Positions 31,457 to 52,079 of a stretch of DNA of 64,000 nt are shown piece by piece. The stretch lies in IMG/VR virus record IMGVR_UViG_3300024324_000002. The stretch is one strand, 5' to 3'. Made by a program: the position numbers and the translations under genes. Source of the DNA: a virus. Below the pieces are notes generated by a model, which was given only the letters and a program-made list of their open reading frames with translations, was not told the DNA's origin and ran no database searches. How positions within the stretch are numbered: position 1 is the stretch's first letter; each line of letters starts with the position of its first letter.

Positions 31457-31467
31457 TTAATATATAC

Positions 31468-35909: not shown

Positions 35910-35934
35910 CCATAAAATTTTTAGTAGTTGTGTG
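35910..35934 (-). promoter_or_regulatory. Conserved 25-nt motif, copy 1
   Basis: Plus-strand CCATAAAATTTTTAGTAGTTGTGTG. Lies 79 nt upstream of the ATG at 35830. GCCGTAGGC mini-hairpin at 35941-35949. Confidence 0.5.
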
Positions 35935-35955
35935 TTGATTGCCGTAGGCTTCTTT

Positions 35956-35988
35956 AAAAAAAAGAGTACCTACTTATTAGCAGGTACT
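35956..35988 (-). terminator. Terminator after the 94-aa gene
   Basis: AGTACCT/AGGTACT stem followed by an 8-nt T-run on the coding strand. Confidence 0.6.
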
Positions 35989-36261
35989 TTCTAGACGCTT
36001 GATTGCGTCTAATCTTATTATATTTAATGAGCAATCTAGTTGCTCATTAATATTTTGGTAGGTACAACCTGCATTCACAGGTGTACCATATTGAGATTCA
36101 TACTCAGCAATTTCTTGCTGAGCATTTAGTGAAGCTGCATAAATTGCAGCTTCTTCTTCTGGAGAAAATTTAATTTCTCCATAAGCTTCTTCGTAATGAT
36201 TGAAGAAAGTTTGAAACTCTCTTCAATCATTATGAAGAATATCTTTTAAATATTTTTTCAT
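35977..36261 (-). CDS. Hypothetical protein (94 aa), unusually hairpin-dense
   Basis: ATG 36261, TAA 35977, one TGA. At least 7 consecutive perfect palindromic stems lie inside the ORF. Confidence 0.45.
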
Positions 36262-36295
36262 AATGATTTATTAATATATAAATGGATATTTCTAT

Positions 36296-36319
36296 CCATA
36301 AAATTTTTAGTAGTTGTGT
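36296..36319 (-). promoter_or_regulatory. Conserved motif, copy 2
   Basis: CCATAAAATTTTTAGTAGTTGTGT lies 34 nt upstream of the ATG at 36261. GGATCTTTGATCC hairpin at 36327-36339. Confidence 0.5.
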
Positions 36320-36329
36320 AAGTGTTGGA

Positions 36330-36530
36330 TCTTTGATCCTATTTTAATAGTCCCCCTTCCTTATGCCTATAGCTATTTAACAACGAGACTTGTTCGAGTT
36401 GTTAAAGTTTTAATTGTCTTCCTTATTTTAATCCCCCCTTCTTGAAGGGGGCTAGGGGGTTATTTTAATTTGTCTTCCTTATTTTTATTTGTCTACTTGT
36501 AGACTTGTAAACTGTTCTCCATTGTATACA
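36330..36530. other. Non-coding hairpin/iteron-like region
   Basis: TGTCTTCCTTATTTT occurs twice (36413 and 36470), and ATTTTAAT is repeated. Hairpins: CCCCCTTC..GAAGGGGG, TAACAAC..GTTGTTA and GTCTAC..GTAGAC. Confidence 0.45.
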
Positions 36531-36565
36531 AAAAAAAAGAGACTGACTATATTAGTCAATCTCTT
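36530..36565 (-). terminator. Terminator after the 39-aa ORF
   Basis: AGAGACTGAC/GTCAATCTCT stem with one mismatch, followed by a 9-nt T-run on the coding strand. Confidence 0.6.
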
Positions 36566-36666
36566 TTCATTTTTCTCATTACTTCTGATTGTTGATTAGC
36601 AGACATTTGTCTGTAATTCTTATATCAGTTAGCTAATGAACTTCAAGCTGTGTTTGTAGTTTTCAT
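36547..36666 (-). CDS. Tiny ORF (39 aa), uncertain
   Basis: MKTTNTAGSSLANGYKNYRQMSANQQSEVMRKMKRDGLI; the stop lies inside the terminator. Confidence 0.3.
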
Positions 36667-36706
36667 AATTTATTTATTTAATAATTAAAGTAAGAACACA
36701 AGAAGA

Positions 36707-37072
36707 CTATAAGTCTTCTGCGTTCATTGCGCTTGAACCAAATGGTTCTAAGCTTTCTACTAATGTAGATAATTCTCAAGCCACAGTTAATACTGGCGCT
36801 TCTTTTTTATCTATACCTTGTTTGTAACCTTGTACAAACTTACTATCTTTATCATACACTTTGAATGATAAGATATTTCCTGATGCTTTACCTTTGATGT
36901 TACAATAAATTGTAGCATCTAATGTTCAATTAGATTGAACATATTGAAATGGAAACACATCTTTAGTAATATCTAAATTTAATTTAGATATTACTAAATC
37001 TAAATTAGATATATGTCTAACACTTGCTATTTTAGATAAGCTTTCTCTATTGTACCCTTTTGAATTTGTCAT
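36707..37072 (-). CDS. Hypothetical protein (121 aa)
   Basis: ATG 37072, TAG 36707. Followed by a GAAGACT/AGTCTTC hairpin. Several internal palindromes. Confidence 0.5.
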
Positions 37073-37116
37073 AATCATATTGATTAGTGATAAAATATTG
37101 GCAGGAGTTTAATCTA

Positions 37117-37140
37117 CCATAAAATTTTTAGTAGTTGTGT
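37117..37140 (-). promoter_or_regulatory. Conserved motif, copy 3
   Basis: CCATAAAATTTTTAGTAGTTGTGT lies 44 nt upstream of the ATG at 37072. Confidence 0.5.
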
Positions 37141-37176
37141 GGATGCTGGCTTGCCTGTTTTAATAAGTCCTCCATT

Positions 37177-37210
37177 AAAAAAAAAGAGAACACATTATGC
37201 TGTGTTCTCT
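37177..37210 (-). terminator. Rho-independent terminator
   Basis: AGAGAACAC/GTGTTCTCT 9-bp stem, 8-nt loop, then a 9-nt T-run on the coding strand. Confidence 0.7.
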
Positions 37211-37399
37211 TTGTATCTCTTTATGTTTATTGTCCCAAGAGTTTTATATTGTAGACCGATATACTTATCTGAAAGTATATGAAATATAAGCGGCGTTCAC
37301 CTCGCTTGTTACTATCAGTCTTACAGATATAAGGACAAGATATTATTTTAATTCTATTATAGCTTCTCTTGTTTTATTCATAATTTAGTTAGTAAATTA

Positions 37400-37954
37400 T
37401 TATTGGTTATCTAATATTCTATCTGATCATTCATAGTCTATGTTATCTAGACTACTCATCATCTCTGATATTTCTTTGTGTCTCTTTAGTTGTTCTGGTG
37501 TTAACTCTGTCTTGTCTGTCTGCTCCGTTCAGAATAACTTGTGCTTGTATATGAATGTATCCATCAGTAATTCTAATTCCTTATCATACTTCTCTCTTAT
37601 CTTATTCTCTTCTCTCTGATATAAGATATTGTAAAATCAAAATTGCTTTCTTATTTCTTCTGCTCGTCTCTTTATTGTAGACACCGTTACTTTAGTTAGA
37701 TCATTATCTAAATAGATGTCTCTCTTGTTGGTCACTTTAAAGATTACTTGTGTCATGAGTTTTGATTCTCATTCTCCTATCTTAAATGTTATGTCTTCTT
37801 CTTGCTCCTGTTCTATATGTTCTTCTAATTCCTTAAACGTAATTCATAACTTACTAGATATAGTTTCTAATAAGTTCTTTCATATCCTCTTCTCATTGTC
37901 TGATCATCAGATATATCTATTGTAAATTCATTTAATCTTATTGCTTATCTTCAT
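37400..37954 (-). CDS. Hypothetical protein (184 aa)
   Basis: ATG 37954, TAA 37400; charged and coiled-coil-like. Confidence 0.5.
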
Positions 37955-38378
37955 GGTGCTAATTTATTATTAACATAAAACTAAGTTTTCTGTATAAGCT
38001 ATTGTTATGTTTCACTATACATCTTATCTATTCGTTACATAACCGTGAATAGATATGGGGATACTTGATCACTTAAATAAGTTTCCGATTACTTAGTTAC
38101 CCCACTCTTAGTACTCATCGCTCTTCAGCTATTCATATGCTTCTGTTAAACAGAAGGTGTAATATATAAGGTAATAATAATATCTTACGATAATGCGAGA
38201 AGTCGGTTGACTATTATGTCCAGCCCCTAAGTTGAGTCATAGCTTATGCTGGCTGCGCTACTGTTAGTTATATGTTGTTATGTATCCATAACTAATAACA
38301 TCAAAATCATATTATTATCATAGCCTCAACTCATAGCCTTCTTATATATTACACCATCCATTTAATAGGATGGTTGTT
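37955..38378 (-). other. Structured non-coding region (candidate ncRNA)
   Basis: No ORF. Nested long-range helices: 38156-38171 pairs with 38337-38355, and 38230-38236 pairs with 38325-38331. Local hairpins at 38140-38156 and 38354-38373. Confidence 0.4.
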
Positions 38379-39488
38379 TTATCTTTTAAATTTATCTTCT
38401 ATAGATCTCTTAGTTGTAATCTCTTCTTTACCTACAGATTCTATAGTGTTCTTTAGATATGTATCTAAATATTCTTTAGTCCCTTTAAGTTCTTCTAATA
38501 TTCTTTGTATAGTTTCTATATCTAAATCTGATATAGCTTTCTCTAAGTCACATATATCTTGTGTAGTCACTGTTCATACTTCCATTAAATCTCATCTAGC
38601 TCTATAGATTAATGCATCATATTCTTTTAATGTTTCCATAGCATTATCTATAGCTTTTCTATTTTTATCTTTAGACATAAAGTCTTCCACTTTGTAATCA
38701 TTATATGTTTTCATTGGTTTCTTTTTAGGTGTTAAAAATGGTTTCATCATTTCTTCTATCTCTTCTTTTGTAGGAGTAGATGATCATGATGTATAAGTAT
38801 CTGTTGTATATGATACTACAGGTGAGTCAGTGTATGATGTAGATGTATCTATAGTTTCTACATACTTCTTTAATGCATATCATCTTCTTGTAACTCTATA
38901 GTCTTCATTAGTTAATCTATATACTTCCCATCAGTCTTCTATGTTTCTTTCTTTTACTTCAAGTCTAACTCATTCATATTCTGAATCATCATCTATCTCT
39001 ACTATATCTCATACTTTATAATCATATAAGTTATCATCCATATCTCTATCGTCTCTTACTAATTCTAAATCATTTAGTTTTGTTTGATTAGTTTCTTTAT
39101 TAATAGGTATTCATGGTGATTGTAATTCTAATCCTCAATCTAATATATTAATAATCTTCCATGATTTCCATTCATTTCTTTTTCTAGATTTAAATCTAAC
39201 ATGTTGTCATACTTTAAATCTAGTCCGTTCTCTTGTTACTTGTTCTATAGGATCTGATAGATAATGTTTTATATAACAACCTACAGTATAGTATACACTT
39301 TGATCTTCTGATGTATATGTAATCATCTCATCATCTAAATTTAATTTAATATATCCTGTAGATCTACTATGTGTATATCATGTAGGTCTATTTCAAGTAT
39401 GCCATTTAATACTTGTGTATTCTTCCATACGCTGAAGAAGTCTTTCAGCTTCTTCTTTAGTATCGAATTTAATATATCTATTGTTCAT
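38379..39488 (-). CDS. Hypothetical protein (369 aa)
   Basis: ATG 39488, TAA 38379; contains track ORF 38379..38570. Confidence 0.6.
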
Positions 39489-39963
39489 AAGTTTTATTTA
39501 TTAAATAAACTAAGCTCTGCATATCTTCTCTTCTTTAATCATTTGTTATTATATCAGTATACTCACATGATATATTTAATATCTTTTATACTACATCTCT
39601 TTATGTATCTATTTATATTCATAGCATACGCTCATGTATTGTACGTATACGATATCATAGCTACCTTTTGGTTATCAGTGTAGCATGATTTATTTACAAG
39701 CTCATAGAGAGGATTTAAATGTTGAATGAAACGCTTGTCTCATTCCTCTCTTGTTATCTCTTCTCATCTATAACTCTTGGTACCATATCAGATACTCCGT
39801 TGCTTCCTATCCCAATATGATCTAGATCTATATCATTCAAATCTAGATATGAATTTCATAGCACGCTGTCTTACTCACTCGCTAACGCTCGCTCCGTCGA
39901 CGTTGTCTTTGTAAACTCTTATTGTATTTAATATAGGTACAGTCTCCTTAGCCTGTACCGTTT
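39489..39963. other. 475-nt non-coding region
   Basis: Stops in all frames. Locally GC-richer (ACGCTGTCTTACTCACTCGCTAACGCTCGCTCCGTCGACG, within 39871-39910) and G-poor on the plus strand. Confidence 0.5.
39936..39959 (-). terminator. Hairpin after the 147-aa gene
   Basis: GGTACAG/CTGTACC stem with a 10-nt loop, immediately 3' of the stop at 39964. Confidence 0.45.
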
Positions 39964-40407
39964 CTACTTTACTGTTCTGAATTGTTCTAAGTTAGAATCT
40001 GTCTTACAGTATTCTAAATTATATTCAACTCAATCTATCTTTCTAGTTATCTGATTAGTATAACATATACTTCTCAATAATTCTGTCTCGTACTTTGGTT
40101 CAGTACTTTTAATTAAAGCTCTAGCTTCTTCTATAGTTTTCATATGATCCTTAGATGCTTCACTAGATTCTCTAGCTCTACCTTCTAATATCTCTATGTC
40201 ACTATTCTTATTAGCTTTAGCTTGCGCTTCTAATAATTCTTGTGCCGCTTTAATCTTAGCTTCACTTGCAGCTAATTCTATTTTAGCATTAGCTATCTCT
40301 AATTCTTTATTACTTTGATATATATCATATCAAATAAATACTATTACTATTGCTACTAATCCTGTAGCTGTTGCCTTGTTAACAACTTTCTTAAAATCTA
40401 TGTTCAT
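39964..40407 (-). CDS. Membrane-anchored coiled-coil protein (147 aa)
   Basis: N-terminal TM segment (TATGLVAIVIVFIGY) followed by an A/E/K-rich coiled coil. Confidence 0.55.
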
Positions 40408-40495
40408 ATTATATAGATTAATAAATAAAATACAAGTCTATTACAGACTTTTTTAATTTAAAATAAAAACAAAATGTGATAGTAAGTTAATACTA

Positions 40496-40519
40496 CCACA
40501 AAATTTTTAGTAGTTGTGT
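40496..40519 (-). promoter_or_regulatory. Conserved motif, copy 4
   Basis: CCACAAAATTTTTAGTAGTTGTGT lies 88 nt upstream of the ATG at 40407. GCCGAAGGC hairpin at 40526-40534. A 9-bp hairpin follows the motif on the coding strand. Confidence 0.5.
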
Positions 40520-40544
40520 GGATGTGCCGAAGGCTAGTACAGAA

Positions 40545-41702
40545 TTAATAAAATAAATTCTTTAGTCCATTGATAACTTCCTCTATCCAATCTAATCTTC
40601 ATTTCATATTACTTATCTCTGTCTTTAGTTTTATTATCTCTGTATTCTGATCTGTTAATCTAGTCTCTAGTTTCAATACTCTTGTAGCTAACTCCATATC
40701 TATACTAGGTGATGGAGTAACTGGAGTTGGTTTAACTATTGGAGTTGGTTTAACTATTGGTGTTGGTTCTATTACAATAGGTTCTTGAACCTTATCATTT
40801 GTAGACTCCTCGTCTCCTCCTAGTTTTAATCCTCATAAACTATTTAATGCTGCTTCTATATTCAATGCTACATCTCATCCAGCTGGCATCTTAGTTCCTG
40901 TTCTTATTAATGTTTCTCTTATCTGTTTATATGTTAATGTTGGATCTACTTCTAACATCAATGCTATAGCACTACTAATCTGTGGTGCTGCGAATGATGT
41001 TCATGGTTGTCTATGTATAGTTCCATCTCTATCTAACATGTCTGGATAATATCCTTTACCTAATATCTCTGTGTGTTCTGTATTATGGTAGAACTTTTTC
41101 TTATATATAAAGTTTCCTTTATGTGAATAATAACTTCATACACATATAATACTATTGTCTTCACAATGATATGAGTTAGATATCCTTGCTTTGTTTTGTA
41201 ATGTAGTTACTACCATTATCCCTGCATCAGTTAATTCTTTTAGCTTAGCTGAATATTCTTTGTTCCTCCATGTTACACTTAAGTTCACTATCTTAATATC
41301 TCCTCTAGCTTTTATCTTATCTAGTATAGGTACTAACTCTTGGTATCTACATGATGTACCATTACAGTAATCATATCTAATTACTTCTGCTCATGGTGCA
41401 TATCATACTAATCATCCATCATTATGTGATGATGTGATTAATGATTCTATTCCTACTCAATGATCTGAATTAGTAAAGCTATCTATTACTGCTATCTTAA
41501 TTCATTTACCTGTAGCTTTATCCCATGCTCCATAAAAGTCTGATACTTTAAATGATCCATCTCTTGTTGATTGATAATATGAATCTCATTTGTTTCATTC
41601 AAAGTTTAATTCACTTGGTGTATATGCATGAGCCTTATTAATCACACATCATATAAGCATTACAAATAATACTATTGTAATTATAGTTAATATTTTTCTC
41701 AT
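40545..41702 (-). CDS. Secreted subtilisin-like serine protease (S8 family) with C-terminal coiled coil (385 aa)
   Basis: Signal/TM segment MRKILTIITIVLFVMLIGCVINKAHA. Asp IKIAVIDSF; His SDHGVGIESL; Asn IVNLSV; Ser QPGTSFAAPQISSAIALM. P/T/V-rich linker followed by heptad repeats. Confidence 0.75.
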
Positions 41703-41709
41703 AGTTTTT

Positions 41710-41904
41710 TTAATTAGTTATTAATAATTCTATTTTATCTGTAGCTAATCTTATCATTGAATGTGATAAGATATATTCTGTTCTATCTTTTGCTTCTTGA
41801 CTTAAGTATTCTATCTTCCATAGTTCTTCTCTTAAGTCTGATAGCTTATTTAAATCTCAATTGTTATAAGCTTCTTCTATATCTATATGATTTATATCAC
41901 ACAT
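41710..41904 (-). CDS. Hypothetical protein (64 aa)
   Basis: Code-25 ORF, ATG 41904, TAA 41710. Confidence 0.45.
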
Positions 41905-41910
41905 AATCTT

Positions 41911-42072
41911 TTAATTAAGTTCTAATATATTTCTAAGACAACATTGTACTTCTCCAATATATTCTAATGCATCTTGTTTCTGTATATCACAAAGTGCAGA
42001 TGCTTCTATAGCATCTGCTTCTTCTTCTAGTCTTTGGTAATATAAATATTGTGGTCAGTTATCTAACATCAT
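41911..42072 (-). CDS. Hypothetical protein (53 aa)
   Basis: ATGATG at 42072, TAA 41911. Confidence 0.4.
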
Positions 42073-42245
42073 AGTAAAGTTATTATCTTATTAAATACTT
42101 CTTCAGTTATATGCTCTTCAGCTTTCCTATATTCCTCACAATCACATGGTGTAATCTGTACTGATTCTCTTCCTTTCTTAAATCATTTAGAATTCTTTTT
42201 AATAATCTTTTGTGATTGTTGTATTCAACTTAGTCTAGTATCCAT
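42063..42245 (-). CDS. Hypothetical basic protein (60 aa)
   Basis: ATG 42245. The TAG at 42063 overlaps the next start by 10 nt. Confidence 0.4.
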
Positions 42246-42255
42246 AATGTATTTG

Positions 42256-42549
42256 TTAATTACTAATAAGTTTATTATATTCACTTCTTATTCTTTCTGC
42301 AAATTCTGGATAACTATGTTCTATATCTCTAGACATTATATAGAATGGTACTACATATTCTATGTATGTATATACTATAGGATGTGATGATGTTGTATCA
42401 TATGTAGTTTCTATTACATGTCCTTTCTTTTGTAACACTTGTATAAGTGATGTGATATTTCTACCTCATCATAATAATTCATTAAGTGTTTTTCTTTTAA
42501 CTATTTTATTATCATTAAATTCTTTTAGAATTAAATCTATTTTCTTCAT
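42256..42549 (-). CDS. Hypothetical protein, possible winged-helix (97 aa)
   Basis: Track ORF 42256..42438 extends through TGA-TGA to ATG 42549. Confidence 0.5.
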
Positions 42550-42629
42550 GTTATTTAATTAATCATTTAAAATATTTTTCTAGCTTCTTATTTTTCTTAG
42601 GTGTATCCTCCCAAGTAATCATAATCTTT

Positions 42630-43022
42630 TTAAACTTTTTCTTGTTCATAAATCATTTTATTATTCTTAGTAAATAGTACTGTCTTATATAATTCAGATA
42701 CTCTCTTAATAGTTTGTGGTGACATCTTATCTAATGTCCTTCACTTATCTCCTTCTTTATATCTAGTCTTAACTCATCTAGCTATTAAGTTTTCTTTAAC
42801 TACTAACTCATAGTTCTCTTTGTTTCTTTCTCTAGCTAGATCTATACTAAACTCACTCATGAGTTTAGCACATCTATCTAGTCAGAACTGTTTACGATAA
42901 TCTGATGTTAACATTCTATGTGTCATTCTTAAATGTGATCATAATTTATTAAATGATTTATCACATAACTCACATATAACTTTTCATTCTGTATCGTATC
43001 TTACTGGTATATATTTATTCAT
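42630..43022 (-). CDS. Ros/MucR-family zinc-finger regulator (130 aa)
   Basis: ICELCDKSFNKLGSHLRMTHRMLTSDYRKQFGL is the CxxC..H..H finger followed by the YR..(W/F)GL signature. Confidence 0.7.
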
Positions 43023-43476
43023 AATAATCTAAATTATATTTATTATATATCGTTTGATATAAATAGCTTGGATGTTTTATTACTTCATCTGATCACCAGT
43101 ATCATTCCCACATAACTCATGTCCTGTTCTCATCTAACTCTACCCATATGTTAGGTCATCCAAATGTTAATAGTATTTTAAATATTCTATTCCTATCTGA
43201 TCTAAATACTTCTATCTCTAATGGTTGATCATCATCTATATATTGTTGTAGTCCATCTTCATTTTCTACTGCATATACATCATCTTCCCATTCATCTTGT
43301 TCATACATATCTTCTGGATCATCATCATACATAGATACATAATCTTTATATTCTGTATCTAGTTGTTCTTGTAATCAAGGATAGATATGTTTAACTATAT
43401 AATCTAATGTAGTTAATTCATTGTAATCATTCATCTCTTCTATAAATGATTCATATATTCTTTCTAAGTCTGTCAT
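43015..43476 (-). CDS. Hypothetical acidic protein (153 aa)
   Basis: ATG 43476 (MTDLE...). The TAA at 43015 overlaps the MucR start. Confidence 0.5.
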
Positions 43477-43483
43477 AATTGTT

Positions 43484-43612: not shown

Positions 43613-43623
43613 AATTGTTTTAG

Positions 43624-44122: not shown

Positions 44123-44123
44123 A

Positions 44124-45202: not shown

Positions 45203-45222
45203 AATTGTTTTAGTTATTAAAT

Positions 45223-45248
45223 AAAAATGATAGCATCTCTGCTATCAT
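45223..45248 (-). terminator. Terminator
   Basis: Perfect 9-bp stem ATGATAGCA/TGCTATCAT, 4-nt loop, then TTTTT on the coding strand. Confidence 0.65.
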
Positions 45249-45249
45249 A

Positions 45250-45561
45250 TTATATCTCATTTAATTTATCTACTCATACTATAATCTTTTTATATGTACT
45301 CTCTCTTATGTTATGTTCATCATTACTTATCTGTGATATTAATGGTTGACTTATTCATAATGCTTTTGATAGTTCATACTGTGACATAAATTTTAAATGT
45401 TCTATTACTATCTTGAATACCTCATCATTAATCTTTGTTTGATAATTCATAAGTTCTTTAGCATTCTCTTTCTTTGTTGGTATAAATAATATTACTACTA
45501 TCATTCCTATAGATGCTACCCCTAATATAGTTAACCATTCTAATACTTCTAATCCTAACAT
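45250..45561 (-). CDS. Membrane-anchored XRE-type HTH protein (103 aa)
   Basis: N-terminal TM segment (LTILGVASIGMIVVILFI), then QYELSKALGISQPLISQISN. Confidence 0.55.
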
Positions 45562-45565
45562 AATT

Positions 45566-47062
45566 TTATAAGTTATAATTTAAATTAATCTTTTTATCTT
45601 TAGTTACTTCAGTAACTATCATTTGTAATCATTCACATTCTTTGATTACTTTATCCCTTAGGTTGATACCTATGCTTTCCCAACGATCTATAAGAATGAA
45701 GTCTATCTTTAAATACTTAATGAATAATTTTGCTAAGAGTATCTCTATAAATAATTCATTCCCTGTACTTGTACTTCCGTATTGATTTCATTCTGCATCA
45801 TAGATCTCAAATGTTTCTCTAGTGTTCCCATTCTTTAATGTCTTGAATAATCTTATATCTAATCCTGTCTCTTTAACTTTATCTTCTAGTCTAGTATTAA
45901 ACTTAAGTCTCTCTGCTTGCTTCTTCTTTAAATCTTTCTCAAGCTTTACAAAGTTCAAGTCTTTAAGTTGTTCTTCTTTAATCTTAATCTCTGCAAGATA
46001 TGATTCTCTTTTATTAATTACTTCTTGATAATCCTTAAACTCTTTAAGATATCTTTCGTAATCAGCATTATCCCTTTCTATATATTTCATTCAGATTATC
46101 TCTGCTCTCTTCTTTACTTCTAATGTGTAATCAGATCTATAATCTGTTTCTCTTTCTAATCATTCCATTGCTTCTTCTATATGTTCATCTATATCAAATA
46201 TAATAACTTGTAACTTATTCTTTAGTTCAGCTTCTTTCTCTAATACATCTCTGTATTTATCTCTTAGATTCAATACTACTTCTTCTTTGTCTTTTCATTT
46301 GATAACTGTACCACATGAATCACAAGTATATTCCATAGAATCTTTCTTAGCTTCAGCTGCTTTATCTGCTAACTTAATCTTTAATGTAGTAAGACTTTGT
46401 ATCTCTGTTTCTAAATGAAACTTTTCTTCTGCTTTATATTTCTCTGCTATCTCTTTAGTTCTTCTATTATCTTCTGCTATCCTTTCGTTCTCGTCTTTAA
46501 ACTTTTGTATCCTAGTATTATATGCTGCATTAATCTCATCAGCATTTCATTCTATTAACTTAGCTTCTTCTGGTTCTTCTAATGCTCCATCAAGACTATC
46601 AGCATATCATTCTATTCTTATGATGTCATCTGTGATCTGATCTTTCTTTGTATGAAATTGTTTAATCTCTGATTCCATATTTCTTATCTCTTCGTTTATT
46701 TTTTCTATCTCATCTCAATCTATATTTAATATCTTAGTAATTATTTCTCTCTGCTTTACAGTCGAGTTTGTTAACTTGAAAAAGTTTCAAGGTAATATGT
46801 ATCTGATAATCTCTGAATCTATTATCTCTCCTATTATCTTCTTACCTTTCATTATAACATTCCCTTTGTCTGTCTCTAATTCTACTTTTCATTCTGGTAA
46901 TCAGTTACCATATCATGGATAGCTTCTACCATAACAAGCCATTATACAATTAAGTATAGTTGTTTTACCTAACAATGATTGACCTCCTAAGATGTTTGCA
47001 TCTTTAAATTGTAGACTACTATCTATTCCATGTACTCCATTCACCTTAATACTTTTAATCAT
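45566..47062 (-). CDS. Rad50/SbcC-like ATPase (498 aa)
   Basis: Walker A GGQSLLGKTT. Long coiled coil with a central CxxC hook (YTCDSCG). C-terminal STSTGNE signature-like motif and DFILIDRWE Walker B. Confidence 0.7.
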
Positions 47063-47065
47063 AGT

Positions 47066-48895
47066 TTATTTATTATTAAATCAAAGTTTCTTTCTCTCTC
47101 TCCTTTGTTTCTGTAATGTAGATTCTCACATAATAATTCTACCATTATGAAATCTACCAAAGATAACTCATAACCAACTCTTTCATCTGTTCTTAGTTAT
47201 GATATACTTAACACTCTTACCATCTCATTTAATAGCTTCTGTATTAACTTCATCTTTGTCGTTAGATATATGTATAACCTTATTAGCTACCTGTGCTATA
47301 GCTGCTCCATCTTTAAATGAATTGTTATCTGGATCTTCATCCTTCTGTAACTTCCTATAGTGTGATACTAATATACATGCAACCTTATACTTCCTAAGTA
47401 AATCATTTAACTGATGCATGAAATTCTCTATAGCTAAATCATGTCTCTCGTTCTTCTCAAACTTTACATAATGTAAATGATCTATCACTACTAATGATAC
47501 TCATTTGTTTATCACTACATCTTTAAATAAGTTTTCTAACTGATGGATGTCCACCATCTTCTTATGTGCTAAGTCTATTATATTAAAGTTATATCTCTTT
47601 AAGTTTATAATAGCTTGATCTATATTTACTAGTATTCAATGATAATCTTCTTCAGTAAATAAGTTAGCTTCAAACATAGAATGGCTAGGCATCCTATCGT
47701 TTCTCTTAACTCTCATTCTATTAACTTCATAGTATATATCATTAATCCTGTTCTCTTCTAGTCTATCCTCTAATGAATATCTAGCTACCTTGAATCATTG
47801 TCTCGCTACATTGTTAGCTATCTGATTACATATCGTACTCTTCCCTACTCATGTCACTCATCATACTACTGTTAGTTGTCATGGTAATAAATATCATAGA
47901 TGATTATCGAACTTCTCAAATCACCAACTCATTACTGATCATTCTGTTCTTTCTTTTAATTCTTTGTATCATCTATCTAATCATTCGCTGTAATCTATTA
48001 ATGCAAATGTTCTCTCCTTAGTTTGTATCGATCAAGCTATAATCATATCAACCAATCAATTTCATAATTGCTTACCTAATTCATTCATATCTTCCTCTTC
48101 TTCTATCTCATAGATATCCGCTTCTATACTCTCTTTGAATACTTCCTTACATTTCTTACCTGCTGCATCATTATCAAATAATAAATATATCTTACTAAAT
48201 TTATTAATGAATGCTACTATCTCTTCAGTAGGCTTAGCTGATGCTGATTTAAATCAGATGACTTGTTCTGTATACTGTCTTAGTGTTAGAAAATCTGTAG
48301 CTCATTCTACTAAGAATATATAATCTTTCTTTAGATCCTTAGTAAAGCTCCAGAATAATCCATCACTTCAATTAGTATTAAATCCTTTTCATATTAAACT
48401 CCTGTATTGATATCATGTCTTCTCTCACTTAATGTCTCTCATCATTATTGATAAACATTGTGTTTCTCATGATGGTGCATTCTTTCCGAATGTCACTGAC
48501 TTAGTTAATCATACTATACCTTTTGGTAATGCTTTATAATTTATTCATCTTAGAAATAAATATGAAGCTAATCTATCTTCATCATTTATAACCTCCATTT
48601 TCTCTATAGGTTTTCTTGGTTCCTCTATCCCTAGACTGAATGCTTTATTAAACCATTCAATAGCATCTGGTATACTTGATCCTGTATGTCATATATAAAA
48701 GTTCAATGGATTCCCTTGTGGTCTCCATTCCTTAGCTTGATTAAAGTTAGATACTATATTATTTTTTATATCATATGTATAACTATCACTATACTTATTA
48801 TCATCAAATAAATATTTTCTATTATTGTATTTAATTCATAATAGTTTTAATACTTCTTCAATAGGTAATTGTTTTATCCTTTCTATAATTTCCAT
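47066..48895 (-). CDS. Primase-helicase: TOPRIM fused to a DnaB-family helicase (609 aa)
   Basis: TOPRIM motifs IFLVEGATDF and LLFDNDAAGKK. Helicase Walker A VVGGVTGVGKSTI and Walker B SLVVIDHLHY. Confidence 0.8.
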
Positions 48896-49215
48896 TATAT
48901 ATCTTTTACATGATAAGGTATTTTATATTCTTCTTTAATAAATCTATTTAACATAGGATTATTAAAGAATGATGTCTTGAAATTCTTGATTTGTTTTTTC
49001 TGTTCACTCCAGTAATCATAATAATTATCTACACAATTCTCTAATTGTTCTCCTGTTATATTATATTTCTTGATCCTTTTACCAAACCATATCTTAAATT
49101 TTTCTAATGGTTCTTTAGGTTTAAATCATAATTCAATTAATGCTTCCACTAAATATGCTAATACTTCTTCATCAGATTCTCTAGCATATTCTTTATATTC
49201 TTTTAGATATTCCAT
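48895..49215 (-). CDS. Hypothetical protein (106 aa)
   Basis: ATG 49215. TAATG overlap with the primase-helicase start. Confidence 0.5.
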
Positions 49216-49227
49216 CTAGTTAATAAT

Positions 49228-49839
49228 TTATTTAATTAAATCTTTAATCTTTTCTAACTGTTCATTAGTTAATTCTAATGTAACCTTTTTCTTTTCTTCT
49301 TCTATTACTATATATCATTTAACTCCATATTCATTCAATTTTATTTCTTTTCATTCTTCTAATTCTATAATTTCATATACATCTCTTCTTACTACTACAC
49401 ATTGTTCACCTGTCTTAAATATACAATTCCCTCCTGTATCAAATATACAATTATAACCTGTCTTAAATTTACATTTAACACCTGTATTAAATGTACAATA
49501 AGAACTTGTCTTAAATGTACAATGTGACTTTGTATCAAATGTACAATCTGAACCTGTCTTAAATGTGCAACTAGAACTTGTATCAAATGTACAATCTGAA
49601 CCTGTATCAAATGTACAATGTGAATTTGTATCAAATGTACAATCTGAATTTGTCTTAAATGTACAATCAGAACCTGTATTAAATGTACAACTAGAACCTG
49701 TATCAAATGTTACTCAATCTATATTATTGAAATCTAATACTAGATTATTTTCTTTACTACTAAATGTTTTAGTAGCTTCATCAAATGTATATTTACTTTT
49801 GTCTAGTTCTTTTCAGAACTGTGTTATACTGTAATTCAT
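49228..49839 (-). CDS. Cys-rich octapeptide-repeat protein (203 aa)
   Basis: About 13 tandem units of C-T-F-[DKN]-T-[GSNK]-S-x, e.g. CTFNTGSD CTFKTNSD CTFDTNSH, followed by a charged C-terminal tail. Confidence 0.7.
49400..49712. repeat. 24-nt tandem repeat (about 13 copies) encoding the octapeptide array
   Basis: Plus-strand unit is approximately TGTATCAAATGTACAATCTGAACC. This explains the spurious track ORFs 49395..49706 and 49565..49834. Confidence 0.9.
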
Positions 49840-49855
49840 AATGTTATTTAGTTAT

Positions 49856-49987
49856 TTAAATAATAATTCAATCGTCCTCTAGTTCCTTTCTTAATCTATT
49901 GTACATTTCTATATTACCTTTCTTATATTCTTGTATAGCTCTATTTGCTTTCCCTTCTATTGCTGCTCCTATCATTACGTTAGCCAT
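49856..49987 (-). CDS. Hypothetical protein (43 aa)
   Basis: ATG 49987, TAA 49856. Confidence 0.35.
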
Positions 49988-50585
49988 CTTTGTTTTTATT
50001 AAATAGTAATATTGTTTCTTTATATTCTAATAGTTCTAGCCATATATCTGTGTAGTATTTTAAATTCTCTACCTCTATAAATTCAAACTTCTTCTTATTC
50101 ATATATAATATGTATCAGTTGTTTAGTCATGACAACCGACAATATGCTGCTATCTGAATTTTATATTTCTCATTTTTTCTTATAGATGTTTTGTAATCTA
50201 CTACTCATAAATTTGTTATAGCATCTATTGTACCTCTAATTCATTCTTTGTAAAATGTCTTCTCTTTATCTACTATAGTAATACTATATAATAATTTCCA
50301 TTCTCTGAATCTCTTGTAATAATCTTTATGTTTATAATCTATCTTTTCCTTATCTAACATCTCATGTACTGCATGTCATCTATCACATGCTTCTTGTAAC
50401 TTCTCTCAATGATTCTGTTTAATGTATGTGAATGATGGATCTTCTATGATAGATAATAATTCTGTTACTGATATATCATCAGTTCCATATCTACCATAGA
50501 CTAGATCTATTCATAACTCATATCCATTATCTGAACAAAACTTTTTTAATTGTCCAAAGTTATTTGTTCCATTCTTATTAATCAT
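49980..50585 (-). CDS. PD-(D/E)xK nuclease, Cas4/RecB-like (201 aa)
   Basis: ...CDRGHAVHEML...GIRGTIDAITNLGVVDYKTS...QIAAY... Confidence 0.7.
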
Positions 50586-50884
50586 GATATCGTATCTCAA
50601 ATAAATATATCTAATTTAATCATAGCTTCTACTACATCTCATAAATCTTCTGTAGCTTCACCATACTTAAATCTATGTGTTCCATTTGTTGATTCTATAA
50701 CTATAGGATTTATAGTAGCTTTATTAATTGTAGCATTAAATTTTTCTTCTACTATAGTTATATTAAATAATTCTTCTAAATTGTTTATTGTCTTTATATC
50801 CTCATAATCAAATATAAACCAAGCACTAGTTGTTCATGGTTCACTAGTACCCATTCACTTCTTATTATTAAAACTTAAATTCAT
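50546..50884 (-). CDS. Hypothetical protein (112 aa), overlaps the nuclease start by 40 nt
   Basis: ATG 50884. In-frame TAA at 50546-50548, in a different frame from the nuclease ORF. Confidence 0.45.
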
Positions 50885-50917
50885 ATTGTGTTTATTATAT
50901 TCTAATATGTGTATCTT

Positions 50918-51094
50918 TTATATCTTTAGTTTTCTCATCATTAACTCATATCATATGCAATCTTCAAATCATGTTTTATATATCATCCTAAAAAAGAATT
51001 CATCTTCTTCAGATAATTTCTTTCATATACTTTTATAAGCTTTTTTTATTCATTCCATACATCTATCTGTATGTACTTCTTTAAATGTTTTCAT
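50918..51094 (-). CDS. Hypothetical protein (58 aa)
   Basis: ATG 51094, TAA 50918. Confidence 0.4.
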
Positions 51095-51115
51095 ATTGTA
51101 TTTTATTAAATGCTA

Positions 51116-51143
51116 AAAAGACTAGTCTAATACTAGTCTTTTA
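51116..51143. terminator. Terminator after the SSB-like gene
   Basis: Perfect 9-bp stem AAGACTAGT/ACTAGTCTT flanked by A- and T-runs. Confidence 0.7.
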
Positions 51144-52004
51144 AAATGGAATGTCTTCTATACTGATTTCATCATTGTTTACTTTTTTCTTTGCAGCTTG
51201 TTCTGCTTTAACTTCTTTCTCAAAGTCTTCATCTGATTGTACTCCTTTAGGTTCTTCTGCATATTGAGGAACTTTCCCTGCTCAATATTCTTTCTTATAC
51301 CATTCATGTTTTGCTCTGATATAATCGATAACTGATTTTTGCATTTCTTCTGCTGCTTCTAAAGCTTCAGTTTCTGCTTTCTTTCATTCAGTTACTATTA
51401 CTTTATATCTAGCTTTATACTCTGAAGCTTCAGATCATTTCATTTCATCTAACTCTGCTAAAGTAATCATATCATCTGATCATTGTTTACCATAACCTTT
51501 GATTACATTAATTGAACATATAGCTTCTGGATTAAATTCTTGTAGTTTAGTTACTACTCATTCTTCTCCAAATGCATGTCATCATGCTAATGCAAATGAT
51601 TTAACTTTATTATCATTAAGATCTAATACAGTTATAGCTGTATGTAATCTAGCTGATTTAGGTAAACCTTCTTTAATAATAGAGTATACTCATTGTATTG
51701 CTTTAGTCTTTACTGCTTTCCCATCTTGAAATATCATATCAATAACATAAAGTTCTTGATTCTTCAATGATGCTATCTCATTTGAATAATATGTATTAGT
51801 AAATTTTCTAATACCATCATTCCATAATTTCCCTTTTATAGTATATCAAATATTCAATACTATAAATTTATCTAATGAATGAATAATGTTTTCACTCTTC
51901 TCTTTATCCCATACTTTAAAATCCCCTTGTGCGAATTCAAGATATGTATCAACTGGTGACTCATTCATTTGCCCACTATTTTCTTTCCATCCTCATAATG
52001 CCAT
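51141..52004 (-). CDS. Putative single-stranded DNA-binding protein (287 aa)
   Basis: Acidic C-terminal tail ending ...DEISIEDIPF, as in the bacterial SSB DDDIPF tip. The body is not a canonical OB SSB by eye. Preceded by motif copy 5. Confidence 0.45.
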
Positions 52005-52054
52005 AATTAATTAAAATTAAAATTTAAAATAAAATTTGGTTAGCTGACTAAACT

Positions 52055-52079
52055 ACCAAAAAATTTTTAGTAGTTGTGT
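52055..52079 (-). promoter_or_regulatory. Conserved motif, copy 5
   Basis: CCAAAAAATTTTTAGTAGTTGTGTA lies 50 nt upstream of the ATG at 52004. GCCGAAGGC hairpin at 52086-52094. Confidence 0.5.

What the first reader, a model, noticed from the sequence alone, without database searches (positions are those of the whole stretch)
35910..52079. Five copies of a 25-nt intergenic motif with flanking hairpins: candidate phage-specific promoters
CCAnAAAATTTTTAGTAGTTGTGTr on the plus strand (ACACAACTACTAAAAATTTTnTGG on the coding strand) occurs at 35910, 36296, 37117, 40496 and 52055, with 23 of 25 positions invariant. All copies share the orientation of transcription, lie 34-88 nt upstream of an ATG, and are intergenic. 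Each is preceded on the coding strand by a tiny GC hairpin: GCCUUCGGC twice, GCCUACGGC, GGAUC-AAA-GAUCC and GGC-AA-GCC. Copies 1, 2, 4 and 5 are followed by a second 5-13-bp hairpin; copy 3 has none. The downstream genes are tiny terminator-bounded ORFs, a membrane coiled-coil protein and the SSB-like gene. Phage N4 virion RNAP recognises hairpin-form promoters, so these could be the sites used by the giant RNAP-like protein. An RNA-processing site is an alternative explanation.
Basis: partly seen in the sequence, partly recalled or inferred. Interest (0 to 1): 0.75.

Follow-up and report, generated by a model that had tools for sequence, protein, structure and literature searches.

The report
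Phage-specific promoters flanked by hairpins
Five identical 24-base signals, each between two small hairpins, most likely switch on five short genes in an uncultured marine phage that reads TGA as glycine; they are probably read by the phage's own giant RNA polymerase, but no transcript data exist to confirm it.

Summary
ACACAACTACTAAAAATTTTnTGG occurs five times on the coding (minus) strand and is expected zero times by chance. The next-best match in the window has at least 5 mismatches.

All five copies are intergenic once genes are called with code 25 (TGA = Gly). All share one architecture:
- the invariant AT-rich block;
- a second hairpin whose 5' arm begins at the TGG;
- 34-88 nt of leader, then one or two genes and a terminator.

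Three copies sit 6-42 nt after a strong intrinsic terminator, which leaves no room for another promoter.

The motif does not fit the TTGACA-N16-18-TATAAT promoters present elsewhere in this genome. Related phages carry their own variants (CACATAAAAAAyTyyTTnTGr; ATATAAAATATTyyTnTGrA) before orthologous or syntenic genes.

Best reading: a phage-specific promoter class. I put about 0.65 on a promoter of any kind, including the host-polymerase rival, and 0.5 on the phage-specific version. The polymerase is probably the 4657-aa protein with a beta'-like DxDxD signature (about 0.35-0.4).

Only three hairpin loops resemble N4. The enzyme type and the position of the conserved bases do not.

No 5' ends are available. 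I classify it as a new variant of a known kind.

The parts
35910..35934 (-). Motif copy 1 (CACACAACTACTAAAAATTTTATGG), 79 nt upstream of the ATG of a 45-aa membrane peptide
36296..36320 (-). Motif copy 2, 34 nt upstream of the ATG of a 94-aa ORF
37117..37141 (-). Motif copy 3, 38 nt upstream of the ATG of a 123-aa ORF
40496..40520 (-). Motif copy 4 (n = G), 88 nt upstream of the ATG of a 147-aa membrane coiled-coil protein
52056..52080 (-). Motif copy 5 (n = T), 51 nt upstream of the ATG of the 287-aa SSB-like gene
35941..35949 (-). Upstream mini-hairpin of copy 1, GCC-TAC-GGC (template strand GCC-GTA-GGC, a GNA triloop)
36327..36339 (-). Upstream mini-hairpin of copy 2, GGATC-AAA-GATCC
37148..37155 (-). 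Upstream mini-hairpin of copy 3, GGC-AA-GCC
40526..40534 (-). Upstream mini-hairpin of copy 4, GCC-TTC-GGC (template strand GCC-GAA-GGC)
52086..52094 (-). Upstream mini-hairpin of copy 5, GCC-TTC-GGC (template strand GCC-GAA-GGC)
35855..35912 (-). Downstream hairpin of copy 1: TGGATAATAT pairs with ATATTATCCA (10 bp, 38-nt loop that holds an inner hairpin)
36282..36299 (-). Downstream hairpin of copy 2: ATGGATA-gaaa-TATCCAT
37099..37119 (-). Downstream hairpin of copy 3: TGGTAG...CTGCCA (6 bp with one G.U; weak)
40475..40500 (-). Downstream hairpin of copy 4: TGTGGTAGTA...TACTATCACA followed by TTTTGTTTTT (terminator-like)
52035..52060 (-). Downstream hairpin of copy 5: TTTGGT...ACCAAA followed by a T-rich tract. 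An alternative fold pairs the motif with itself (ACTACTAAAAA/TTTTTGGTAGT).
35693..35830 (-). Unit 1 gene: 45-aa membrane peptide, followed by the intrinsic terminator at 35682-35717
35977..36261 (-). Unit 2 gene: 94 aa, no family match, followed by the intrinsic terminator at 35965-35988
36547..37078 (-). Unit 3 genes: 123 aa plus 39 aa, followed by the intrinsic terminator at 36534-36568. The terminator of the preceding gene lies at 37183-37212.
39964..40407 (-). Unit 4 gene: 147-aa membrane coiled-coil protein (weak Rz-like spanin match). A hairpin at 39936-39959 follows, then a lysozyme gene at 39494-39859.
51141..52004 (-). Unit 5 gene: 287-aa SSB-like protein (C-terminal ...EDIPF tail; no family match), followed by the hairpin plus T-run at 51117-51141
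15809..29782 (-). 4657-aa ORF with a beta'-like DPBB/DxDxD signature (DFDAD at residues 2382-2386): candidate virion RNA polymerase
   Evidence: no Pfam or PDB sequence match

Best explanation
The five elements are promoters of a phage-specific class. Each starts a short transcription unit of one or two genes that ends at an intrinsic terminator.

The invariant block ACACAACTAC-TAAAAATTTT-nTGG is the recognition and melting region. By analogy with AT-rich promoters of virion two-barrel polymerases, whose motifs are centred near -10, transcription would start at or next to the G's of TGG. The mRNAs would then begin with the stem-loop that follows the motif in every copy.

The GC mini-hairpin 5-6 nt upstream is a structural part of the signal, because its structure is conserved while its sequence varies. 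On the template strand three of the five read C-GAA-G or C-GTA-G, which are very stable DNA mini-hairpins. It may be extruded in supercoiled DNA or may mark the upstream edge of the bubble.

The enzyme is most likely not the host sigma70 holoenzyme. It is more likely the phage's own 4657-aa protein with a beta'-like DxDxD centre, presumably delivered from the virion. That would make these units early or immediately expressed genes.

Shown: the motif, both hairpins, the positions, the terminators, the lack of a sigma70 consensus, and conservation in relatives.

Inferred: promoter function, start site, polymerase identity, timing, and DNA versus RNA nature of the hairpins.
For: - Statistics: five perfect copies with 0 expected by chance, and nothing between 0 and 5 mismatches.
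- All copies are intergenic and co-oriented with the genes. They lie 34-88 nt before the next ATG, but 25-259 nt after the previous stop codon. They therefore track the downstream gene.
- Copies 1 and 3 lie 6 and 21 nt (terminator T-run to mini-hairpin) behind strong intrinsic terminators, and copy 2 lies behind a terminator plus about 200 nt. No other promoter fits between terminator and motif. The window has 25 terminator-like sites against 2.7 expected.
- Every unit is one or two genes followed by a hairpin plus T-run.
- None of the five sites is among the minus-strand TTGACA-N16-18-TATAAT-like hits. Good host-type promoters do exist elsewhere, for example 34219-34246 before the RecA block, 54518-54545, and 11478-11506 before the capsid genes. 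Equivalents are present in relatives.
- The mini-hairpin at a fixed offset is present in five of five copies with three different stem sequences, against a background of 0.09%. A second hairpin starts at the TGG in five of five copies, and in 9 of 11 sites when relatives are included, against a background of 28.5%.
- Relatives whose major capsid proteins are 63-66% identical carry their own multi-copy variants. L010 has CACATAAAAAAyTyyTTnTGr three times. L014 has ATATAAAATATTyyTnTGrA three times. One L010 copy precedes the ortholog of the copy-4 gene (47% identity, E 9e-26). Another precedes the syntenic, weakly similar counterpart of the copy-3 gene.
- The giant ORF aligns FRNPVPNKENTGVYKI...HPESIFFKLQADFDAD with RNPIPNRENLGVYKI...HPEATYMKLQGDNDGD in a relative. 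This is the pattern of the RNA polymerase beta' NADFDGD barrel.
- Precedent in the literature: jumbo-phage virion polymerases use phage-specific AT-rich motifs of about 10 nt centred near -10 (PMC7598289). P23-45 gp96 uses a strongly conserved AT-rich motif (PMC10770324).
- No sigma factor or T7-like polymerase was detected among the ORFs of at least 80 aa scanned against Pfam.
Against: - No transcript 5' ends, expression timing or virion proteomics exist for this uncultured phage.
- The giant protein has no Pfam or PDB sequence match. Its polymerase nature rests on one short signature, and structure prediction could not be run.
- In the only studied crAss-like phage, early transcripts made by the virion polymerase had no common upstream motif.
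- The five genes are functionally mixed: SSB-like, a possible spanin next to a lysozyme, and three tiny unknowns. They are not an obvious early set.
- Copies 4 and 5 have no terminator upstream. Their downstream hairpins look like terminators, so an RNA-level role is possible there.
- TGG followed by TAG.T resembles an extended -10 element in three of five copies.
- Identity among the five copies could partly reflect recent duplication or gene conversion rather than selection on every base.
Confidence: 0.5

Rival explanations
1. The sites are promoters read by the host RNA polymerase. Either they are extended -10 promoters (TGnTAnnnT just after the motif), or host polymerase is redirected by a phage-encoded factor that binds the invariant upstream block, as T4 MotA/AsiA does at middle promoters. 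The hairpins would be incidental, or leftovers of terminators.
For: Copies 3-5 read TGG-TAGATT, TGG-TAGTAT and TGG-TAGTTT, which is TG, one base, then TAnnnT. In phi14:2 the conserved multi-copy motifs turned out to be host sigma70-type middle promoters. The phage encodes Ros/MucR-like and HTH proteins that could act at AT-rich sites.
Against: - Copies 1 and 2 break the TGn-TAnnnT register by one base.
- The putative -10 hexamers are the variable part, while the spacer and -35 region are invariant. This is the opposite of sigma70 promoters.
- There is no TTGACA-like -35 element, and the sites are absent from the consensus scans.
- In relatives the TAnnnT after TG is not in register.
- Canonical promoters with a normal -35 and -10 are present in the same genome.
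- No sigma-like or MotA-like protein was detected.
Confidence: 0.2
2. The motif acts in RNA. It would be a conserved single-stranded AU-rich segment presented between two stem-loops in the 5' untranslated region. It could serve as an RNase E-type processing site, a binding site for a phage RNA-binding protein or small RNA, or a stability or translation element.
For: The arrangement of hairpin, about 26 unpaired conserved nucleotides, then hairpin is predicted for four of five copies when folded as RNA. Copies 4 and 5 have no terminator upstream, so they would be part of read-through transcripts. Stem sequences co-vary.
Against: - Copies 1-3 follow strong intrinsic terminators, and there is no room for a promoter between terminator and motif. 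Little RNA would carry the element unless it is itself the start signal.
- The motif lies 34-88 nt from the ATG, too far for a ribosome-binding operator.
- The GCC-GAA-GGC and GCC-GTA-GGC loops are the stable form on the template DNA strand. The 2-nt-loop hairpin of copy 3 is not favoured as RNA.
Confidence: 0.12
3. The motif is a sequence-specific termination or insulator signal for the phage polymerase, part of a composite terminator at the 3' end of the upstream unit. P23-45 has a conserved 26-nt motif at terminators of its virion polymerase.
For: There is a precedent in P23-45. Copies 1-3 follow terminators. In copies 4 and 5 the motif's 3' end is the 5' arm of a hairpin followed by a T-run.
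Against: Distance to the upstream stop codon is very variable (25-259 nt), while distance to the downstream ATG is tight. The last cassette gene (45 aa) has no motif after it, and the first gene of the array (184 aa) has none before it, which fits a promoter register. In a relative the variant precedes the ortholog of the copy-4 gene.
Confidence: 0.05
4. The motif is a DNA-level replication or packaging element, such as iterons or single-strand priming signals for the phage primase-helicase. Mini-hairpins are known at primase recognition sites.
For: GNA mini-hairpins occur at G4-type and ssiA priming sites. The phage encodes a Toprim-DnaB primase-helicase. Three copies cluster beside a long conserved non-coding region.
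Against: All copies sit in gene-start position with the same polarity as the genes, spread over 16 kb, each before its own ORF and terminator. Iterons are normally clustered and are not tied to ORF starts. The association with orthologous genes in relatives is not expected for origin repeats.
Confidence: 0.05

Closest known systems
AT-rich early promoters of virion-packaged two-barrel RNA polymerases (phiKZ/AR9-type jumbo phages; Thermus phage P23-45 gp96)
   Same: Both are strongly conserved, phage-specific AT-rich motifs before several co-oriented units, and the motif differs from phage to phage. The genome encodes a very large protein with a DxDxD centre, next to the packaging and capsid genes. 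Host-type promoters or other classes serve the remaining genes.
   Different: The invariant block here is 24 nt rather than about 10 nt. It is bracketed by two hairpins, which are not described for those promoters. Start sites, timing and virion packaging are unknown. The polymerase is a single 4657-aa chain with no detectable sequence similarity to those enzymes.
Coliphage N4 virion RNA polymerase hairpin promoters (P1-P3)
   Same: There is a small GC-rich hairpin just upstream of the presumed start. On the template strand three of five have G-N-A triloops closed by C:G (GCC-GAA-GGC, GCC-GTA-GGC). This is the same class of very stable DNA mini-hairpin as the GGA/GAA loops of N4. The genome also encodes a giant virion-type polymerase candidate. 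With N4 geometry (loop centre at -11), position +1 would fall on the first A of ACACAAC.
   Different: N4 vRNAP is a T7-like single-subunit enzyme, whereas the signature here is beta'-like DxDxD. N4's conserved bases lie in the hairpin (-17 to +1) and its stems are 5-7 bp. Here the stems are 3-5 bp and vary in sequence, two loops are TT or TTT, and the invariant 24 nt lie downstream of the hairpin. The relatives' variants have other small palindromes, not GNA hairpins.
T7-group single-subunit RNA polymerase promoters
   Same: Both are near-invariant over about 23 bp, occur in several copies per genome, and differ between related phages. Both have an upstream specificity part, then an AT-rich part, then G's where initiation could occur (T7 promoter layout).
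   Different: No T7-like polymerase gene was detected in what is nearly the whole genome. Flanking hairpins are not part of T7 promoters.
PeSL cassettes (promoter-early stem-loop) of T4-like phages
   Same: Both are composite terminator-plus-promoter repeats that flank small, poorly conserved ORFs in tandem cassettes within a variable region. Here there are three cassettes in 1.5 kb.
   Different: PeSL promoters are host sigma70 early promoters. A role of the repeats in recombination or gene shuffling was not tested here. Copies 4 and 5 precede conserved genes rather than variable ones.
Promoters of crAss-like phage phi14:2
   Same: The genome logic is similar: a giant DxDxD protein next to the terminase, portal and capsid genes, HU/IHF-like genes, host-type promoters before structural or expression modules, and long conserved non-coding stretches beside the presumed early genes. 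The capsid model's second-best structural match is the phicrAss001 capsid.
   Different: In phi14:2 the conserved motifs are host sigma70-type middle promoters, and early gp66 transcripts had no common motif. Here the conserved motif is not sigma70-like. Membership of this phage in Crassvirales is not established.

Membership tests
N4-type virion RNA polymerase hairpin promoter | Template-strand hairpin with a 5-7 bp stem and a 3-nt loop (GGA/GAA, sheared G.A pair, C:G closing pair) centred at -11 | tested here: inconclusive
   Hairpins are present in five of five copies at a fixed offset, but stems are 3, 3, 3, 3 and 5 bp. Template-strand loops are GAA twice, GTA, TT and TTT. The start site is unknown. 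Definition from PMC4496689 and PMC13037366.
N4-type virion RNA polymerase hairpin promoter | Conserved, polymerase-contacted bases lie within the hairpin (-17 to +1) | tested here: not met
   Hairpin sequences differ (GCC/GGC, GGC/GCC, GGATC/GATCC). The invariant 24 nt begin 6-7 nt downstream of the hairpin, which ends 5-6 nt before the 25-mer.
N4-type virion RNA polymerase hairpin promoter | Cognate enzyme is a T7-like single-subunit polymerase domain inside a giant virion protein | tested here: not met
   The giant ORF has no Pfam or PDB sequence match. Its only recognisable signature is beta'-like RNPxP...HP...DFDAD/DNDGD.
N4-type virion RNA polymerase hairpin promoter | Dependence on supercoiling and SSB, and location at the genome end injected first | not testable with these tools
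   The physical genome ends are unknown. Contigs break at different places.
AT-rich early promoters of virion two-barrel RNA polymerases (jumbo phages, P23-45) | Highly conserved, phage-specific AT-rich motif before several co-oriented units | tested here: met
   Five identical copies with the core TAAAAATTTT, all before genes on the coding strand.
AT-rich early promoters of virion two-barrel RNA polymerases (jumbo phages, P23-45) | Motif differs between related phages while its place before equivalent genes is kept | tested here: met
   Variants in L010 and L014. The ortholog of the copy-4 gene carries the L010 variant, and the syntenic counterpart of the copy-3 gene does too.
AT-rich early promoters of virion two-barrel RNA polymerases (jumbo phages, P23-45) | Motif centred about 10 nt upstream of mapped primary 5' ends of early, rifampicin-resistant transcripts | not testable with these tools
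   No transcript data are available. Short contigs that might be metatranscriptomic could not be retrieved.
AT-rich early promoters of virion two-barrel RNA polymerases (jumbo phages, P23-45) | Genome encodes a virion-packaged two-barrel RNA polymerase | tested here: inconclusive
   There is a DxDxD/DPBB-like signature conserved with a relative. There is no family or structure match. Virion packaging is unknown.
Bacterial sigma70 promoter | TTGACA-like -35 and TATAAT-like -10 elements separated by 16-18 nt | tested here: not met
   None of the five sites appears among the listed minus-strand consensus hits (and the stronger sites shown). Canonical examples exist elsewhere in the window. An extended -10-like TGnTAnnnT occurs in only three of five copies.
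T7-group promoter | About 23-bp near-invariant promoter plus a T7-like single-subunit polymerase gene in the genome | tested here: not met
   The length and invariance fit. No such polymerase was found among the ORFs of at least 80 aa scanned.
PeSL (composite terminator/early-promoter cassette of T4-like phages) | Stem-loop terminator directly followed by a conserved promoter, repeated around small variable ORFs, and mediating indels by recombination | tested here: inconclusive
   A terminator followed by the motif occurs at copies 1-3, around ORFs of 39-123 aa. The promoter type is not sigma70. Recombination could not be assessed because strain variants are 99.98-100% identical.
[quoted passage not shown] | Extended tripartite motif with sigma70-like -35 and -10 blocks, used by host polymerase | tested here: not met
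   There are no -35 or -10 blocks in the motif. Definition.

The most novel reading that the evidence does not exclude
The hairpin-bracketed 24-nt element is the recognition signal of a single-chain, crAss-type (two-barrel, DxDxD) giant virion RNA polymerase. It would be the first sequence-defined promoter for that enzyme class. It would use an extruded template-strand GNA mini-hairpin, as N4 does, and so be a convergent hairpin promoter solution in an unrelated polymerase. The phage infects code-25 candidate-phyla bacteria.
Probability: 0.25. Interest if true: 0.8.

Novelty: new variant of a known kind. Interest (0 to 1): 0.55.

Why it matters
Giant virion RNA polymerases of crAss-like and similar phages are widespread. 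For the one studied example, however, no promoter could be defined. That blocks in vitro work on how these enzymes find their start sites.

A sharply defined, multi-copy signal with lineage-specific variants gives a concrete template set for testing a recombinant fragment of the giant protein.

It also gives a way to annotate immediate-early units in uncultured phages of Gracilibacteria and Absconditabacteria, for which nothing is known about transcription. If the mini-hairpin matters, it would show that hairpin-assisted promoter recognition arose more than once.

If the sites instead prove to be host-polymerase promoters, the finding is an ordinary, though tidy, phage promoter class.

Tried and rejected
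- Exact-motif scans of IMG/VR, JGI metagenome contigs and GTDB genomes gave only single chance hits: a giant-virus MAG, chloroplast psaJ regions and a Chryseobacterium locus. The motif is therefore neither a widespread repeat nor a repeat in any catalogued host genome.
- Fetching relatives by single proteins failed for RecA and for the primase-helicase. It also failed with a RecA alignment, because the chosen peptide patterns contained TGA-encoded positions.
- The 209-aa protein search was wasted on a huge unrelated family. The database translates these contigs with code 4, so W-translations work better.
- Strict relative-type patterns in IMG/VR returned only the known contig plus chance hits.
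- Strain variants of this phage are 99.98-100% identical, so within-population conservation is uninformative.
- The lookup of the 45-aa protein showed that many short contigs exist but cannot be displayed, so there are no transcript-like ends.
- PHROGs, Pfam and PDB sequence searches found nothing for the giant protein or the capsid protein, and only weak matches for the terminase and portal. There was no match in GenBank phages.
- Rfam found nothing at gathering thresholds and only noise at E <= 1. No tRNA genes were found.
- Considered and rejected on sequence inspection alone (no dedicated scan): sigma54-type promoter (no TTGC at -12); palindromic operator (only AAAATTTT is symmetric); MITE-like mobile element (no terminal inverted repeats or target duplications; flanks unrelated).
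- Lower TGA use in the motif-driven genes, as a sign of high expression, is only marginal (42% against 58% of glycine codons, p = 0.03).

Full report
**1. Observation.**
The degenerate 25-mer has exactly five matches, all on the + strand, at 35910, 36296, 37117, 40496 and 52056. None of 100 shuffles gave a match.

An alignment with flanks shows that conservation begins abruptly at ACAC and ends just after TGG, with unrelated flanks. A mismatch scan shows five perfect copies and nothing else below 5 mismatches on either strand.

**2. Context: the genome uses code 25.**
With the standard code the window has almost no long ORFs. If TGA is read through, the minus strand becomes nearly fully coding, including one ORF of about 4660 codons.

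TGA encodes glycine, not tryptophan. The evidence:
- A collagen G-X-Y repeat in ORF 973-2574 is perfect only with TGA = Gly, and then matches Pfam Collagen at E 2e-13.
- The terminase Walker A motif reads GSGKS only with TGA = Gly.
- Of 14 aligned TGA positions in RecA, 7 align with Gly of E. coli RecA and none with Trp.
- TGA makes up 4.0% of codons against 2.9% for all GGN codons together.

TGA is used in nearly all genes of 80 aa or more. The host therefore presumably uses code 25, as Gracilibacteria and Absconditabacteria do (background from PMC10746230).

The same genome occurs at 99.98-100% identity in contigs of 64.0-64.9 kb, among them one from Saanich Inlet at 200 m depth. The window is therefore nearly the whole genome.

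Gene map on the minus strand, from high to low coordinates:
- fibres and a holin;
- a VRR-NUC nuclease;
- the SSB-like gene, an exonuclease, a primase-helicase, an SbcC-like protein, an HTH protein and a Ros/MucR protein;
- an S8 protease, the membrane coiled-coil protein, a lysozyme and small ORFs;
- 1.5 kb of non-coding DNA;
- RecA and the giant ORF;
- terminase, portal and capsid genes, then tail genes.

**3. Anatomy of the five sites on the coding strand.**
- *Upstream mini-hairpin.* Each copy has a GC mini-hairpin ending 5-6 nt before the 25-mer: GCCTACGGC, GGATCAAAGATCC, GGCAAGCC and GCCTTCGGC twice. Such a hairpin at that offset occurs at 0.09% of window positions. GCCTTCGGC occurs nowhere else in the window. 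The stems differ in sequence but stay paired, so it is the structure that is kept.
- *Invariant block.* The sequence CACACAACTACTAAAAATTTT is predicted to be unpaired.
- *Downstream hairpin.* nTGG begins the 5' arm of a second hairpin in all five copies: TGGATAATAT/ATATTATCCA, ATGGATA/TATCCAT, TGGTAG/CTGCCA, TGTGGTAGTA/TACTATCACA and TTTGGT/ACCAAA. This feature is common in AT-rich DNA (28.5% background). It is therefore only moderately significant: p about 0.002, or about 4e-4 for 9 of 11 sites when relatives are included.
- *Leader and unit.* A leader of 34-88 nt follows, then one or two genes and a hairpin plus T-run.

Copies 1 and 3 lie 6 and 21 nt (T-run to mini-hairpin) behind strong terminators. 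Copy 2 lies about 200 nt behind one. Copies 4 and 5 directly follow the stop codon of the previous gene, and their own downstream hairpins are followed by T-rich tracts.

**4. Why a promoter.**
The motif tracks the downstream gene, at 34-88 nt, rather than the upstream gene end, at 25-259 nt. For copies 1 and 3 there is no room for any other promoter between the terminator and the motif. Unless these genes depend on read-through of strong terminators, the start signal must be the motif or must overlap it.

The five units are compact promoter-gene-terminator cassettes. The sites do not fit TTGACA-N16-18-TATAAT. The genome nevertheless has good host-type promoters:
- 34219-34246 before the RecA block;
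- the near-identical 54518-54545;
- 11478-11506 before the scaffold and capsid genes;
- 55063-55090 and 53921-53948.

The promoter before RecA is also present in relatives. Two classes of start signal therefore coexist in this genome.

**5. Relatives.**
Capsid and RecA searches found a family of uncultured phages.

- *L010* is part of a 59-kb JGI contig (capsid 66%, RecA 37% identical). The exact motif is absent. A related motif, CACATAAAAAATTCTTATG(G/A), occurs twice before small genes beside the same conserved non-coding region. A third variant, GCACATAAAAAACTTCTTTGGAAG, precedes the clear ortholog of the copy-4 gene (47% identity, E 9e-26).
- *L014* is part of a 66.6-kb IMG/VR contig (capsid 63% identical). 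Three copies of ATATAAAATATTyyTnTGrA precede three cassettes in the same place. The last encodes a small membrane peptide, as here.
- The gene after copy 3 is syntenic with, and weakly similar to, the gene after one L010 copy and one L014 copy.
- *L008*, the closest relative at 78% capsid identity, has an AT-rich block followed by a TAGATGGAT/ATCCATCTA hairpin at the copy-2 position.

Anchored at TG, all lineages share (C)ACA ... TAAAA(A)-T/A-TT(C)TT-n-TG(G/A). Most are followed by a hairpin that starts at the TG.

The pattern is many identical copies within a genome, different versions between genomes, and the same gene positions. Recognition by a co-evolving phage-encoded specificity would give this pattern.

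**6. Which polymerase.**
The 4657-aa ORF has no Pfam or PDB sequence match. Around DFDAD (residues 2382-2386) it reads FRNPVPNKENTGVYKI...HPESIFFKLQADFDADTVISIPL. This aligns with RNPIPNRENLGVYKI...HPEATYMKLQGDNDGDHFVMFPI in L010. From my own knowledge, that is the pattern of the beta' double-psi barrel that ends in NADFDGD.

Its size and its place just before the terminase, portal and capsid genes match crAss-like phages, as do the two HU/IHF-like genes. A mediocre capsid model (pLDDT 58) hits the Vibrio phage VP1 capsid at E 1e-9 and the phicrAss001 capsid at E 1e-4. No sigma factor or T7-like polymerase was detected.

Literature:
- Jumbo-phage virion polymerases use phage-specific AT-rich motifs centred near -10.
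- P23-45 gp96 uses a strongly conserved AT-rich motif.
- In phi14:2 the virion enzyme transcribes the replicative module and long non-coding RNAs, but no early motif was found there. Host polymerase serves the middle and late genes.

If the A5T4 tract is centred near -10, the start falls at the G's of TGG, the base of the second hairpin. Transcripts coming from upstream would then contain the whole hairpin plus T-tract at copies 4 and 5 and could terminate there. Transcripts started at TGG would lack part of the 5' arm. This is an inference, not a result.

**7. The N4 analogy.**
On the template strand, three mini-hairpins read GCC-GAA-GGC (twice) and GCC-GTA-GGC. These are C-GNA-G mini-hairpins of the kind that make N4 promoter hairpins unusually stable. 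That is a real resemblance.

The defining N4 features are not met, however. The conserved bases are not in the hairpin, the stems are shorter, two loops are TT or TTT, and the enzyme is of a different family. The relatives have other small palindromes rather than GNA hairpins. It may work somewhat like N4, but it is not an N4-type promoter.

**8. Rivals.**
- *Host polymerase.* TGG-TAGnnT resembles an extended -10 in three copies, but the register breaks in two. The supposed -10 is the variable part, and there is no -35 element.
- *RNA element or processing site.* The hairpin, single strand, hairpin layout fits, and copies 4 and 5 could be read through. Copies 1-3, however, sit behind terminators.
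- *Sequence-specific terminator.* There is a precedent in P23-45. The positional register and the conservation before an orthologous gene argue for a start signal rather than a stop signal.
- *Iterons or priming sites.* These would not be expected before every unit with gene polarity.

**9. Novelty and limits.**
Phage-specific promoter classes are well known, so this is not a new kind of thing. What is new is the double-hairpin bracket, the lineage (a code-25 marine phage with no relatives in GenBank phages), and the chance to define a promoter for a giant single-chain DxDxD polymerase.

Nothing here shows transcription. Start site, timing and enzyme are all inferred.

Noticed in passing
whole window; e.g. 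973-2574, 13354-15498, 32698-33744: The genome is translated with code 25 (TGA = Gly), not code 4. TGA completes a collagen G-X-Y repeat and the terminase Walker A motif. It aligns with Gly in RecA (7 of 14 positions, none with Trp). It is the commonest glycine codon (4.0% of codons). Nearly all genes of 80 aa or more use it, which points to a Gracilibacteria or Absconditabacteria host. Source samples include Saanich Inlet at 200 m.
   Followed up: yes
35358-35566 (minus strand); L010 8860-9100; L014 7700-7960; L008 690-890: About 230 nt of non-coding sequence just downstream of cassette 1 is strongly conserved in four phages whose RecA proteins are only 37-78% identical. One 25-mer, AGAAGAGTCCAGAAAAAGAAACACA, is identical in three of them. 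It has almost no predicted secondary structure and no Rfam match. It could be a cis-acting DNA site or an unstructured early RNA, comparable to the early long non-coding RNAs of phi14:2.
   Followed up: partly
34653-35120 (minus strand): An A/C-rich tract of about 400 nt (ACAACACAAC...) is followed by a conserved element, GGGGGTAATCTGTCCCAGTAGTAGTTATAGTATAGGGGTACCCC. Both are present in L008 and L010. One independent 64,137-bp contig ends inside this region, at window position 35123. It is a candidate origin or genome terminus.
   Followed up: partly
38140-38370 (minus strand); L010 6200-6450: A second conserved non-coding block lies in the 424-nt gap before the 184-aa gene. Its column identity to L010 is about 79%. 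Hairpins at both ends show compensatory changes (ACCATCC...GGATGGT against CCCTAC...GTAGGG; CTTCTGTTTAACAGAAG against CTTCTATTTAAATAGAAG). It is a candidate small RNA with no Rfam match.
   Followed up: partly
34219-34246 and 54518-54545 (minus strand); 54427-54517: Two canonical sigma70-type promoters have near-identical spacers: TTGACATTATGTCAGTTATGAATAAACT and TTGACATTAGTTTAGTTATGAATATACT. L008 carries a similar one. The first precedes the RecA block. The second is followed by about 90 nt of hairpin-rich sequence and a strong terminator with no ORF, which suggests a small RNA.
   Followed up: no
36433-36459 (minus strand); L008 52-80 and 643-668: A C-rich element, CCCCCTAGCCCCCTTCAAGAAGGGGGG, forms a strong hairpin with no T-run. 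It is conserved in the closest relative and lies between cassettes. Its function is unknown.
   Followed up: no
35602-37175 (minus strand): The purine-rich 9-mer (A/T)(A/T)GGA(A/G)GA(C/T), mostly AAGGAAGAC, occurs 5 times in this 1.6-kb stretch, against 10 times in the other 62 kb. The copies often lie just after terminator T-runs and before the mini-hairpin.
   Followed up: partly
15809-29782 (minus strand), residues about 2320-2400: The giant 4657-aa ORF has a beta'-like signature. DFDAD here corresponds to DNDGD in the L010 homolog, and RNPxPN and HPE are conserved upstream of it. Homologs in relatives are 4198-4621 aa long and only 27-35% identical.
   Followed up: partly
9291-10631 and 56800-58548 (minus strand): The major capsid gene and the 582-aa fibre-like gene almost completely avoid TGA. 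It makes up 3-4% of their glycine codons against 58% genome-wide. This suggests TGA is disfavoured in the most highly expressed genes.
   Followed up: partly
35910-35913, 36296-36299, 37117-37120, 40496-40499, 52056-52059: The variable base n makes nTG an ATG (three times), GTG or TTG, all of which are valid start codons. These open mini-ORFs of 3-17 codons. It may be coincidence (p about 0.24), or it may reflect leaderless or leader-peptide starts.
   Followed up: no
31139-31770 (+ strand): The only clear plus-strand genes are two HU/IHF-like DNA-binding proteins (Pfam Bac_DNA_binding in the precomputed annotation of the identical contig). crAss-like phages also carry such genes.
   Followed up: no
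window ends (about 64010-64000 and 1-610): From the contig coordinates, the 64,875-bp ENA contig appears to repeat about 738 bp at its two ends relative to the 64,137-bp JGI contig. This may be a direct terminal repeat or an assembly overlap. It is inferred from coordinates only.
   Followed up: no
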